Source: Callorhinchus milii
Taxonomy: Eukaryota
DNA length: 64,000 nt
Reading direction: 5' to 3'
Assembly: GCF_018977255.1 (NCBI RefSeq)
Contig: NW_024704746.1
Coordinates: forward strand, 32,736,001 to 32,800,000
A program made the position numbers and the translations under genes. Below, piece by piece: positions 2,645 to 19,024 of this stretch (its first letter is position 1; each line of letters begins with the position of its first letter). The notes beneath the pieces are model-generated. The model was not told the DNA's origin. It made no database searches and worked only from the letters and a program-made list of their open reading frames with translations.

Positions 2645-5600
2645 ATGGCGAGTGTGAGCTCCTGCAGCTCTCTGCTGTTCGGTGCTATCCTCCTCTCAAC
2701 CTGCTCAGCAATCCAACCACTGAAACCAGCAGGTAATGCAGAACTGCAGGTCTGGTTTTCTCGAATTAAGAGCAAAAACAACATCCAAAAAAAAGTACAA
2801 ATGCATGTTGATCTGGTCATGTTAAACATTTTGTTCAAAGGCACTTTTCAACAAAAAATGAGTATGTGTGACAATAAATAAGAGTTTAATTTGCAATGTA
2901 TAGATATTGTCAATGCAGTATTGTTCTTGTCTCTCTATACGTTCAGGAAATTCAGTAAAAGCCCAATTCTGGATGTTGGTACTGTTGAGTGCATTACTAA
3001 TGGAGTCGGGTAGCGCAGTGGTTAGAGCCCTTGCCTCCCAAGCATAGAGGACCTGGGTTCTATTCCTAGCAGAGCAAAATATTGGGCAAGTTTTCCTTAC
3101 TCCACACTTCTCTGTTTACCTAACAGTAAGTAGGAGCCCAATTGTTAGTCAATTGGTGGATTGCTTTTCCAGGGGTAATAATTCTTTTAAAAAAATAATT
3201 TGGTCACTTCAATCCACGACTTTGTGGGACACTGCTGTGTACAATTGACCGGTGTGTTTTGCCCACAAAATATAGTCAATTCATTTTACAGTATATATTC
3301 TGTGAAGCACTTTGAGATGTCTCGAAGACCTGTTAAGGGGCTATATCAATTGCAAGGATTATTATTATTACACCATTCAACTTCAATATAAGTGTTACCA
3401 CTAAATGATAACCATGTTGGTTGGATCTATGAATGACTGGAGTTATTGGACATAAAGATCTTTCTGTCTTTCAAGTTGGGCCTTGAATATATTTTGGGGG
3501 CTTTACTGATCAGTCGCTAAAACCACAAGATTACATTTTTGCAAACTGTAAAATAATCTATCCACATGAATATATTTCATTCTGTATTTTTCAGGGGTGA
3601 ACCCAGGGAACTGTGGTGCTGTCTTGCTTTGCTGGGAAATAACATCAAGCGCTGTATCTGAAAGGTAAATGCCATAGTGAGAAAATTTGTACCATATTTG
3701 TAGCTTAATATTGTTAGCTCTCTGAGTTTAACACCCCCTCCGTAAATATTGTCGCTACAGTGACATTAAAGGTCTTATAGTTAGTGAAACGGGCCATTTA
3801 ATCCAACTAGTCCGTGTCGATATTTATGCTTTATATTATCCACCACCCCTCCTATTCCAGTTCAGATGAAATTGGAATGCAGTGATATCAATGAATTGCT
3901 TCTGAATGTATGCTTAATGTGCTTAACATATAACGATAATATCAACCAGAGGGAGTCGAATTGTTGCCTATCCTATTCCGTTAGCAGTGTTAGGATCTTT
4001 GTGTATTTTATGTATGTCTTTCAGTGACTTTTGCTTGTAATAAAATCTGAAGACTAAGTTATTTGATGTCTATACCCAGTTTGAATCCAACCTTGACTGA
4101 TTGTGTGGGTGTACATTGTGTTTCCAGTAGACTTGGGTCCAAAGTATTTAAAAATTCCCACTTTAAGGGGTTGTTAAATGTCCTTATACGATGTAGCAGA
4201 AAAACTGGCCTTGGGCTGCCCGTAACTTTGCAAATTTGTGATTTTTAAATTTTGCAAACTTGTGATTTTTATTTCTTGTTTTGTTCTATTAGAGAATTTT
4301 ATTTAAATGGCAACAACGTAATTCATGCTGAAAGATTGAGAAGATCTGGGTCCTTACTGTTGGAACCTCAGGCGAAGCACATTATGCAGTACTTTCATAC
4401 TAATGGATCACTGACTTGGAGAATCTATACTACATGTATGTAAATAATGACAATTCAGCTTTGTCGTACGCATTCTTTCTCTGATCAATGTTTGGATTAA
4501 TAGCTAATTACTGTTCTGGCTTTTAATGGATGTCTTTCTGACCTGATAGATTTTATTTTAAAGTAACTGAGACTGGAACTTAAGAGCTAACCTAACAGCA
4601 ACCTGTTCATTGACCAATCGTAACTAAACCAAGCTGTTAGGAGCTTTAATTGAGTGTTTTTCCTGTGTGGGTTCATATAACTATTTGAATTTGTGTGTAC
4701 AAGTGACTTGACTTTGGCAAATTGCTCTGCTTCTTGACTTTCTTTCGAACAAATCTTTGTTTTGTACTTCTTAAACCTTTGAGGCCCTTCACGCATAGAA
4801 GCCTTGTCCATGAATGGAAATATCACAGAGGTGGTTTCCCACAGTATTGAAAAGGTAGGATAGCACTGGCATTGTTCGTTGTAAATAGGAGCTTTGCAAC
4901 TTATGATGGGAGAGGGGATTTAGGTGAACGCTTTAAACAGAACTAATTTTGTTAATAATCATTGTTGTATTTGCTTTCTAGAAAACTGTAAACAACAAGC
5001 CAAGTTTAGCGTTCTTAAGAAGCACTAAATTGGTTTGTATGGGTGAAATCCTTCACTTCTCAGAGAAAGATGGGTTTTCCTTGGCAGTAGGTAGGTTTCC
5101 TGCTCTTGATGTTGAATTCAAAATACAGCACCTATTGTGTGATATTTGTAAGAAGTCTCTTAATAGGGAAGCCTGATGTACCCATTATTGCCTTCCTCTT
5201 CAAATAAATCTATTTTTGGAGCAGAGTTCCTGTGTGGTGATGTGATGTACATTTGGTTACACAAAAGAGTTCCTCCTCAGATTCCTTACTCAGGACTCTG
5301 TTTGAAATTGACTGTGTTAGATGCCAATGAATGTATGACTTGTGTGTATAACACAGGGTTTATAAATCATTGAATTGTTAATCTATTCCACTAACTTAAA
5401 ATTTCTATAATTCTACAAATGAGTAAACTGTTGACCTGATGTAAATGCCTGTGTCTATAATGGAATTGAATGACCATTCGAACATTGTACAAAGCGATCT
5501 CAATTTGTGGGGTGGGGGGAAGAAAAGCGTTTGTTAAACACCGGCTTTTAAAAATTGTTTCTATGTCTTGCAGCAATTGCTGATCACTTCCCTTTGGAAA

Positions 5601-17600: not shown

Positions 17601-19024
17601 TGTGAATCATTGCTGATACTATAGTCCTGTAATTTCTATTAATTTCTTAGAACCAAGAGACGTGATCATAAATACTCTGACCTTATATAGTTAGCGATAT
17701 TGCAGAGAAACAAGCCATTCAGTTCAAACTGGTATTTATACTCCACACAAGCCCCTAATCCTCTCTTTCCCCCTCCCAATTATTCCTTTCTCCATGTGTG
17801 CATCACACGTTCTCAAATACATTGATAATATCTTAACAAAATAAATGTCTATGTAAGTGTCTTTACATAAGTACCTTTAGTATCATAACATGTATCACTG
17901 TTTGCCACTTCTTTCTATTTGTATGTAGCTGAAGCTTGTAAGGTGAAAAGCTCCCCAGGCTCTGTCATTCCCCTTTTAACATCACTGTTTAATTTACCAG
18001 AAAACAAGAGACATAGTTGGCAAAATAAATAATTTACTTCTCAATGGATAGGGCAGTAGAAAATAGTTAGTCCTGGTTATTAGTAGCTTAGTTTCTTAGT
18101 GAGTCCACAGCACTGAAATGTTCACTTTGTATTAAATTAGCAGCCTCACTGCAAGGTTAGGAGAATGCTATTTCATCTTTCCATACAAGATGGTTTGTAT
18201 CCTATCTGATGCCAAGATCCTTTTACATTGGTTTTCCACCCAATTGCTTAACTGCTACTTTAATACAATAACTATAGTGGAACTCAGGAGCCTCATCTGA
18301 TTTCTGGGAAACTTAGTTTCTCACCAATGAATGAGATGGCTGTGAAAGCAACTTTAGATCTGTCAAAACTTCTCCAATGTAATCAGAACCAAATCAAAGT
18401 ACTGTATGCAGAGCTGCATAATATTGATATGAAGATCATCATTAGTGGAATGGGCAAACTCAAACTATTTGATCTTGGATTAGGGATTAAGTCAGAATTT
18501 ACAAGATAGTGAGTGATTTAACAGCAAGTTTGAATAACTTCAACCCAGAATACTTTCACACCATCTAGTGGCTTTGTTGCAGAACAACATTGGCAGGAAC
18601 TTGGATGTGATGAATGTCACCAAAGAATTGGACTGAAAATTACTTGGATACTGGCAGAATGTCCCAAGTCATCCTTTGATTTTTTTTAAAAAAAAAGTTA
18701 GTTTAATTCTAAACCATATCTTGCCATTAAATCTTGGTAAATTATTGAAAACCATTTTTCTGCTTTGGATTAAACAAGATTGAATATCAAAATCTTGATG
18801 TGCTGTTTTGCAAAACAAATGAGATGAACAAATTCTTACAAATGTATTTTTTGTTCACAGGGGAACACCTAGAAGTTGTTCTCTGCATAGTTGGAGGTGT
18901 AGTAGGAATAGGACTACTGATTATATTTGCTACCGTTGTATTCAAGAACGTCATGAGTAACAAGACCAAGCTTAAAACAAGTCAGCAGTTGAATGAAGGA
19001 CAGACAGCTTTCTCTAATTTGTAA
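2645..19024 (+). CDS. Uromodulin-like ZP-domain type I membrane protein (signal peptide, ~5 FN3-like, SEA, Ca-binding EGF, ZP, TM), ~986 aa, 16 exons
   Basis: Phase-consistent exons: 2645-2732 ([22 protein letters not shown] signal peptide; alternative ATG 2636), 3595-3664, 4293-4435, 5574-5831, 8311-8607, 8702-8953, 10674-10913 (FN3-like, e.g. [31 protein letters not shown]), 12629-12786 and 13150-13360 (SEA-like, [11 protein letters not shown]), 13761-13910 ([18 protein letters not shown]), 14796-14986, 15319-15476, 15896-16156, 17110-17275 ([33 protein letters not shown]), 17427-17580 ([14 protein letters not shown]), 18861-19024 ([25 protein letters not shown], then stop). Exons 2-3 are the least certain. 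Confidence 0.85.
3002..3370 (+). mobile_element. tRNA-derived SINE (long subfamily) with L2-type tail
   Basis: A-box TAGCGCAGTGG and B-box-like GGTTCTATTCC head, a central GTGGGACACTGCTGTG..AATTG block, and a tail ending GCAAGGATTATTATT. Confidence 0.85.
9044..9300 (-). mobile_element. SINE, 5'-truncated
   Basis: Reverse complement of the body and tail of the same family. Confidence 0.75.
10240..10505 (+). mobile_element. Old, degenerate L2 3' fragment
   Basis: CTGGACTAT-like segment, pyrimidine tract and a GTGAAGCGCTTTGAGA..TTGTTG tail. Confidence 0.45.
14170..14625 (+). mobile_element. Old Deu-domain SINE (SacSINE1/AmnSINE1-like) relic
   Basis: GAGGGAGCACTTTGTCAGAGGTGC..GGATGAAAGATTAAAC..CAGGTAGGTGTTAAAGATC..CACTATT resembles the DeuSINE central domain, and the segment ends in the shared tail. 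Confidence 0.55.

What the first reader, a model, noticed from the sequence alone, without database searches (positions are those of the whole stretch)
2645..19024. Uromodulin-like gene with an unusual FN3(x~5)-SEA-EGF-ZP-TM architecture next to KRR1
Seen: an intact ~986-aa spliced ORF with a signal peptide, symmetric phase-1 FN3-like exons, SEA, Ca-EGF, a full ZP module, an RSGR cleavage-like site, an external hydrophobic patch ([10 protein letters not shown]) and a TM. Known: UMOD and GP2 have EGF/D8C-ZP and are GPI-anchored; UMODL1 has EMI-WAP-EGF-FN3-SEA-ZP. No EMI, WAP or D8C exon was found here, and as I recall no ZP gene flanks human KRR1. Inference: a distinct, probably uncharacterised filament-forming ZP protein that may have been lost in mammals, for example a mucosal, renal or sensory-gel matrix component.
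Basis: partly seen in the sequence, partly recalled or inferred. Interest (0 to 1): 0.72.

Follow-up and report, generated by a model that had tools for sequence, protein, structure and literature searches.

The report
Overlooked ancient vertebrate ZP-filament gene family
This is a real, spliced elephant-shark gene of an unnamed family shared by lamprey, sharks, bony fishes and salamanders but not seen in reptiles, birds or mammals, and its protein likely is cut from the cell surface and strung into uromodulin-like fibres in a tissue that is still unknown.

Summary
The gene is real: 18 exons (2636-19024) give 1049 aa, one residue off RefSeq's uncharacterized LOC103179855 of Callorhinchus milii, and RNA contigs carry its splice joints. 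The layout is a signal peptide, an unassigned beta-rich domain, four FN3, a degenerate SEA, Ca-EGF, ZP-N/ZP-C, a basic site, EHP and TM. It lies between a PHLDA1-like gene and KRR1, where human gene lists show nothing. It is not UMODL1 or ZPD: the same genome has both elsewhere, and trees reject either placement. Its ZP modules form one clade (100/99) from lamprey, chondrichthyans, ray-finned fishes and salamanders. No frog, lungfish, coelacanth or amniote member appeared among annotated proteins. Databases call members 'uncharacterized', 'zpd' or 'uromodulin-like 1'. Its FN3-FN3-SEA-EGF-ZP part aligns end to end with shark UMODL1, which suggests an ancient paralogue, but the sister group is unresolved. 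The UMOD polymerisation elements are conserved, so it most likely forms cleaved ZP filaments with FN3 side arms. Polymerisation, tissue and function are untested. Verdict: a new subfamily of a known kind, moderate interest.

The parts
2444..2449 (+). TATAAA, putative TATA box 28 nt before the 5' end of the RNA contig (2472)
   Evidence: contig end (contigs cannot prove a start)
2472..2732 (+). exon 1: 5' UTR with in-frame stop at 2531, ATG 2636 (second ATG 2645), signal peptide
3595..3664 (+). exon 2 (phase 1-2), N-terminal beta domain, conserved C39/C45
4293..4435 (+). exon 3 (phase 2-1), N-terminal beta domain
5574..5831 (+). exon 6, FN3 domain 1 (aa 169-250)
   Evidence: fold match to fibronectin FN3, Z 10.1, rmsd 1.9 A over 79 residues
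8311..8607 (+). exon 7, FN3 domain 2 (aa 251-349)
   Evidence: Pfam fn3
8702..8953 (+). exon 8, FN3 domain 3 (aa 350-433)
   Evidence: profile match to UMODL1 FN3, 24.5 bits; model; RNA
10674..10913 (+). exon 9, FN3 domain 4 (aa 434-513)
12629..13360 (+). exons 10 (12629-12786) and 11 (13150-13360): degenerate SEA-like domain without the GSVVV motif
13761..13910 (+). exon 12, calcium-binding EGF
   Evidence: Pfam EGF_CA 2e-8
14796..15476 (+). exons 13 (14796-14986, GC donor) and 14 (15319-15476): ZP-N and start of the ZP-N/ZP-C linker
15896..17275 (+). exons 15 (15896-16156) and 16 (17110-17275): linker end, IHP and ZP-C with FRF motif
17427..17580 (+). exon 17: last ZP cysteine, RSGR site, external hydrophobic patch
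18861..19024 (+). exon 18 coding part: TM helix, short tail, stop
19025..19548 (+). 3' UTR up to the first AATAAA (19543)
   Evidence: an RNA contig covers 19086-19367

Best explanation
This spliced gene encodes a type I membrane ZP-module glycoprotein of an unnamed vertebrate subfamily, distinct from UMODL1, ZPD and UMOD, that is likely cleaved at the basic site after ZP-C and would then polymerise at the cell surface into uromodulin-type filaments, predicted to carry the N-terminal domain, four FN3 and the SEA-like domain as side arms. Shown: gene model, splicing, domain order, separate clade, separate UMODL1 and ZPD genes in the same genome. Inferred from UMOD and ZPD: (1) the EHP blocks polymerisation in the membrane precursor; (2) a furin- or hepsin-type protease cuts near RSGR; (3) the ZP-N/ZP-C linker swaps into the neighbouring subunit; (4) the glycosylated arms (10 sequons) space the filaments and bind ligands or microbes. 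Most likely the product is an apical gel or mucus-like matrix of one water-facing or luminal epithelium. The tissue is a guess. The family most likely arose by duplication from a UMODL1-like FN3-SEA-EGF-ZP ancestor before lampreys and jawed vertebrates split.
For: Gene and splicing. All 10 ZP cysteines are kept in 22 of 22 aligned members; an RxxR or dibasic site lies between the last Cys and the EHP in 20 of 22; an EHP-like strand and a TM follow. FXF is strict in 10 of 22 and F-x-I/V/L/M in the other 12. Best PDB sequence matches are the two known homopolymers, avian ZPD (28yj, 1e-27) and human UMOD (6zs5, 1e-26). They align across EGF-ZP, including UMOD's linker MKVSL with VKMSL and its FRSG with IRSG. 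The mechanism is taken from passages of PMC7737619 and PMC13124595. The clade of 17 rows has support 100/99. Sawfish member and sawfish UMODL1 align continuously over FN3-FN3-SEA-EGF-ZP, 602 columns at 24%. FN3-3 and FN3-4 profiles score UMODL1 highest among non-family proteins held. The ESM Atlas ranks two UMODL1 clusters next (0.94).
Against: No experiment shows cleavage, polymerisation or tissue. The chimaera site is only RxxR (RSGR), strict Rx[K/R]R occurs in 4 of 22 members, and both salamanders lack any basic site and the EGF. The ZP tree does not resolve the sister group: UMODL1 (p-AU 0.43 and 0.30), ZPD (0.18) and UMOD/TECTA-type (0.19) all stand unrejected. A UMODL1-built SEA profile barely scores the family (best 2.5 bits). 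The deepest RNA contig over the 5' end fits an exon-4-skipped, frame-shifted form. The linker region of the model has pLDDT under 50.
Confidence: 0.6

Rival explanations
1. It stays membrane-anchored as an adhesion molecule or co-receptor whose FN3 stalk does the binding, as betaglycan and endoglin use ZP modules without forming filaments (recalled).
For: True TM and tail rather than a GPI signal; four tandem FN3 as in receptor ectodomains; salamander members lack a basic cleavage site.
Against: The ZP module is far closer to UMOD and ZPD (1e-43 with the family profile) than to TGFBR3 (1e-6). A basic site and EHP are kept in 20 of 22 members. The tail is short and not conserved.
Confidence: 0.17
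2. It is an egg-coat or reproductive-tract component, a ZPD-like subunit that co-polymerises with other ZP proteins.
For: Top PDB sequence hit is avian egg-coat ZPD; NCBI labels the Heptranchias member 'zona pellucida glycoprotein d'; a family-plus-ZPD sister clade is not rejected (p-AU 0.18).
Against: The genome has its own ZPD-clade gene at C14:13.80 Mb. Reedfish has both a 'zpd' and a family member. Chondrichthyan members inside ZPD is rejected (p-AU 2e-7). ZPD-clade proteins are about 350-440 aa with at most an EGF before ZP.
Confidence: 0.15
3. It is simply the chimaera UMODL1 (olfactorin) orthologue with missed upstream EMI/WAP exons.
For: Shared FN3-SEA-EGF-ZP-TM order; some members are named 'uromodulin-like 1' in sturgeon, Aldrovandia and Denticeps records.
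Against: Separate UMODL1 on C4. No hit of any of 162 proteins in 200 kb upstream. In-frame stop inside exon 1. p-AU 6e-5 for the pairing with shark UMODL1.
Confidence: 0.02

Closest known systems
UMODL1 / olfactorin
   Same: FN3-FN3-SEA-CaEGF-ZP-TM order, alignable end to end at 24% in sawfish; type I membrane anchor (PMC8874799 passages).
   Different: No EMI, WAP or N-terminal EGF/SEA; own N-terminal beta domain; FN3 repeats with their own conserved cysteine pairs; SEA without GSVVV; separate clade and locus; not seen in amniotes, whereas UMODL1 is in mammals.
Uromodulin (UMOD) and GP2
   Same: EGF-ZP-N-linker-ZP-C with the same cysteine pattern, FXF motif, basic site and EHP.
   Different: TM helix instead of GPI; FN3 and SEA arms instead of EGF I-III and D8C; 0 of 32 members hit D8C.
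ZPD (avian and amphibian egg-coat homopolymer, PDB 28yj)
   Same: Best PDB sequence match over EGF-ZP; same ZP exon breaks as the ZPD-clade gene on C14.
   Different: About 630 extra N-terminal residues; separate clade; a ZPD-clade gene exists elsewhere in the genome.
Zebrafish omcin cluster (PMC11415648)
   Same: Fish uromodulin-like ZP proteins of epithelia.
   Different: Omcins are D10C-EGF-ZP, GPI-anchored and multicopy; this gene is FN3-bearing, and its ZP-C exon has a single match in its genome.

Membership tests
ZP-module proteins, UMOD/ZPD type | ZP-N plus ZP-C with 4 + 6 conserved cysteines | tested here: met
   Pfam; 10 Cys in 22 of 22 rows; aligned to UMOD
ZP-module proteins, UMOD/ZPD type | basic cleavage site, EHP and membrane anchor after ZP-C | tested here: met
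   [14 protein letters not shown]; basic site in 20 of 22, missing in both salamanders. Sequence only; cleavage not shown
ZP-module proteins, UMOD/ZPD type | polymerises into filaments | not testable with these tools
   needs expression and EM
UMODL1 | EMI and WAP domains at the N-terminus | tested here: not met
   none in 32 members or in the window plus 200 kb upstream, while the same queries find them on C4
UMODL1 | FN3-SEA-EGF-ZP-TM C-terminal order | tested here: met
   SEA below the Pfam cut-off, hit in 5 of 32 members at E<=0.01
UMODL1 | ZP module nests in the UMODL1 clade (orthology) | tested here: not met
   a sister relationship is not rejected
ZPD | ZP module nests in the ZPD clade; short EGF-ZP protein | tested here: not met
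   p-AU 2e-7; own ZPD-clade gene on C14
ZPD | egg-coat localisation | not testable with these tools
   runs are coded and carry no tissue
UMOD/GP2 | D8C domain and GPI anchor | tested here: not met
   no D8C in 32 members; TM helix with tail; no GPI predictor was run
Autoproteolytic SEA domains | GSVVV-type motif (motif recalled) | tested here: not met
   absent from the SEA region in 14 of 14 members; present in 3 of 6 UMODL1 SEA slices
FN3 (N-terminal domain, aa 38-167) | seven-stranded FN3 fold or profile match | tested here: inconclusive
   confident beta-rich model, but fold hits map to aa 169-250; the domain was not folded alone; no profile cross-hit

The most novel reading that the evidence does not exclude
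[quoted passage not shown] It was dropped, perhaps several times, as lineages left the water, leaving an empty KRR1-PHLDA1 interval in mammals. Its N-terminal 130-aa domain is an undescribed binding module displayed on the filament.
Probability: 0.25. Interest if true: 0.75.

Novelty: new variant of a known kind. Interest (0 to 1): 0.46.

Why it matters
Vertebrate ZP-module proteins are few and well studied (egg coat, uromodulin, GP2, tectorins, UMODL1). This is a further subfamily, at least as old as the lamprey split, hidden under 'uncharacterized', 'zpd' and 'uromodulin-like 1' labels that can mislead egg-coat and UMODL1 gene surveys. It gives a single-copy candidate for an aquatic extracellular matrix that can be knocked out in a teleost. 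It also gives an outgroup for how UMODL1 gained its EMI-WAP head. It does not imply a new mechanism.

Tried and rejected
Tissue of expression was not obtained. No listed holder is on record as RNA, and runs are coded. X9 showed no exon cover and X10-X12 hold next to none of the words, which is no evidence of silence. Direct read support for exons 2-5 is open: inclusion of exon 4 rests on RefSeq X1 and shark orthologues, and its skipping on contig length (only exons 2+3+5 sum to 322 nt). The catshark organ atlas (PMC11979771) and the ZP phylogeny supplement (PMC6262864) could not be read. Either may list this family. The N-terminal domain gave no Pfam, PDB or profile match of its own, but it was folded together with FN3-1, so a new fold is not shown. 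Whole-model Foldseek only restates FN3 and ZP. Searches for frog, caecilian, lungfish, coelacanth or amniote members found none among annotated proteins; genomes were not searched, so unannotated genes or pseudogenes remain possible. Synteny in other species could not be tested. Ten paper searches, including six LOC ids and KRR1 with 'zona pellucida', found no description of the family. Earlier scan findings: none by sequence or place, one unrelated sea-urchin ZP note by words. No Rfam family lies in 1-44000. An ampullary-organ role was considered and ranked low because gar and teleosts keep the gene although most lack ampullary organs (recalled).
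Full report
Gene model. Candidate exons read from the sequence were refined to 18 exons with consistent phases, 16 GT-AG introns and one GC-AG intron. From ATG 2636 they give 1049 aa. This differs at one residue (G16S) from RefSeq XP_007893531 / UniRef A0A4W3I005, 'uncharacterized LOC103179855' of Callorhinchus milii. The same change is seen as G>A at 2681 in run X1.

Splicing. Four of 12 listed runs were laid. X1 shows GT-AG joints at 16155/17109, 17274/17426 and 17580/18861, and a contig that joins 8951 to 10672. 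X2 repeats one joint. X3 covers the introns and shows none of these joints in the rows listed. An 833-nt X1 contig runs from 2472 in exon 1 to exon 6 with 322 nt between. Of all subsets of exons 2-5, only 2+3+5 gives 322. That form skips exon 4 and stops at the junction, which fits RefSeq's X2 isoform starting in exon 5. TATAAA lies at 2444 and an in-frame TAA at 2531 inside exon 1, so this transcript has no room for upstream coding exons.

Domains. Pfam on the full protein gives ZP-C, ZP-N, fn3 and EGF_CA above cut-off and SEA below it. Across 32 family rows ZP-C hit 29, fn3 27, EGF_CA 26 and SEA 5; WAP, EMI and D8C hit none. The AlphaFold model (mean pLDDT 71, pTM 0.41) shows four FN3-type sandwiches on exons 6-9, an alpha/beta SEA-like unit, EGF and the ZP module. 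A second model of residues 26-250 (pLDDT 82, pTM 0.77) matches FN3 only over residues 169-250 (Z 10.1). Residues 38-167 form a confident beta-rich unit with conserved cysteines (C39 13 of 16 rows, C45 14 of 18, C146 18 of 18) that no search assigned. The count is four FN3 plus one unassigned domain. The SEA-like domain lacks the GSVVV motif (motif recalled) in 14 of 14 members.

Neighbourhood. Downstream lie KRR1 (KH_KRR1 hit), two CAP-domain genes on the minus strand, a RIC3-domain gene and an EF-hand gene. A PH-domain ORF lies 59 kb before the window. Calling these GLIPR1-like, CAPS2 and PHLDA1, and a further ORF ZDHHC17, rests on those domains plus my recall of the sequences. A human table lists CAPS2, GLIPR1L1, GLIPR1L2, GLIPR1, KRR1 in one interval and PHLDA1, NAP1L1, BBS10, OSBPL8, ZDHHC17 in the next (PMC4754774, table passage; a 164-kb gap between the intervals is unlisted). 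A sheep list runs KRR1, PHLDA1 (PMC12334768, table passage showing a subset of genes). So the block is conserved and the ZP gene sits where these lists show nothing.

Family. Searches with name look-ups found members in sharks, rays, reedfish, bichir, sturgeon, gar, several teleosts, axolotl and newt, and a lamprey protein (LOC116956420). Eel, hake and killifish fragments were assigned by score only. Ten unnamed members are all closest to named ray-finned fish proteins. Of 162 proteins held, 151 had a ZP hit; 140 modules went into a FastTree, and I picked 59 and 35 for IQ-TREE. In the 59-row tree the 17 family rows, lamprey included, form one side of a branch (100/99), apart from UMODL1 (100/100), ZPD (96/83) and D8C-bearing UMOD types (99/94, with one OIT3-like row inside). 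Salamanders group weakly with chondrichthyans (93/44). Labels such as TECTA, OIT3-like and several ZPD and UMOD rows are my own, from length, Pfam and position; named human UMOD, GP2, TECTB and CUZD1 were not in the tree. The lamprey row has an odd letter make-up, but its best blastp hit among 23 named proteins is the chimaera protein and it shares family motifs in SEA and ZP-C. No frog, caecilian, lungfish, coelacanth or amniote member appeared, although lungfish, bird and mammal ZP proteins were among the hits. Taken at face value this needs several losses, so annotation gaps may explain part of it.

Not UMODL1, not ZPD. Of 31 ZP-C matches in the genome, one locus best matches shark UMODL1 apart from a multi-ZP protein, and one is 98% identical to a ZPD-clade protein. 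At C4:3.86-3.90 Mb the UMODL1 queries find N-terminal (EMI position recalled), WAP, EGF, five FN3, ZP and TM exons. In the window plus 200 kb upstream they find only EGF and ZP exons. Sawfish has both genes. AU tests reject the query as partner of shark UMODL1 (6e-5) and chondrichthyan members inside ZPD (2e-7). NCBI's 'zpd' name for the Heptranchias member and the 'uromodulin-like 1' names elsewhere are therefore mislabels. The sister group is open: UMODL1 (0.43, 0.30), ZPD (0.18) and UMOD/TECTA types (0.19) are all unrejected. Outside the ZP module the evidence leans to UMODL1: a continuous 602-column alignment, the best non-family scores for FN3-3 and FN3-4 and the Atlas ranking. FN3-1 and FN3-2 score long FN3-repeat proteins higher.

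Mechanism. In UMOD, cleavage after ZP-C frees the EHP, the interdomain linker takes its place in the neighbour, and the FXF motif pairs with the next ZP-N (PMC7737619, passages). Avian ZPD forms the same kind of homopolymer (PMC13124595, passages). These two are the best PDB matches, and the needed elements align and are conserved. I therefore commit to a cleaved ZP filament with long glycosylated arms (about 0.6). Against it: the chimaera site is a weak RxxR, and salamanders lack both the site and the EGF. Lamprey, gar and newt carry S/T/P-rich inserts (42-52% over 60 residues, against 37% in the chimaera), which hints at a mucin-like surface role. Tissue is unknown.

Literature. Ten searches found no account of this family. 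I saw passages of PMC6262864, PMC13361971, PMC11415648, PMC8874799 and PMC10416458; none mentions it in the passages returned. PMC11979771 I saw only as a listing. Its supplement and that of PMC6262864 were unreadable and may bear on expression and on prior inclusion in ZP trees. The protein is already annotated as uncharacterized and has its own automatic Atlas cluster of 74 members.

Verdict. A real gene, representing a distinct, old and apparently undescribed vertebrate ZP subfamily: a new variant of a known kind. Interest 0.46.

Noticed in passing
window 43184-50942 (+): A RIC3-domain gene (Pfam RIC3 4e-15 at 45602-45877) sits between the CAP-domain genes and the CAPS2-like gene. The human list for this interval shows no such gene, so it may be a second gene lost from this block.
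   Followed up: partly
window 4784-4854: The deepest 5' RNA contig appears to skip this 71-nt exon, which creates a stop at the junction; possible regulation by unproductive splicing.
   Followed up: partly
window 14986/14987: GC-AG intron inside ZP-N (donor GCAAGT), consistent with the RefSeq protein.
   Followed up: yes
G000:C4:3863540-3909198 (L052-L057): Chimaera UMODL1 has five near-identical FN3 exons in tandem. No SEA exon was found next to its EGF and ZP exons, but a SEA-like ORF and exons matching the unusual N-terminus of sawfish UMODL1 lie further upstream.
   Followed up: partly
window 20711-23180: GT-rich minisatellites with a repeated TGCTGAGGCCCTGG unit flank the KRR1 first exon and include N stretches.
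   Followed up: no
L037:973-1569 (G000:C5:32676973-32677569): The PHLDA1-like ORF carries a long His/Gln run inside its PH domain.
   Followed up: no
window 44044-44108, 47800-47862, 52717-52775: Three weak tRNA-family matches (38-39 bits) within repeated sequence, probably tRNA-derived SINE heads.
   Followed up: no
P0013, P0014, P0019, P0038: Salamander members replace the EGF with S/T/P-rich sequence and lack a basic cleavage site; the lamprey member has a tandem-repeat mucin-like insert before the SEA-like domain.
   Followed up: partly
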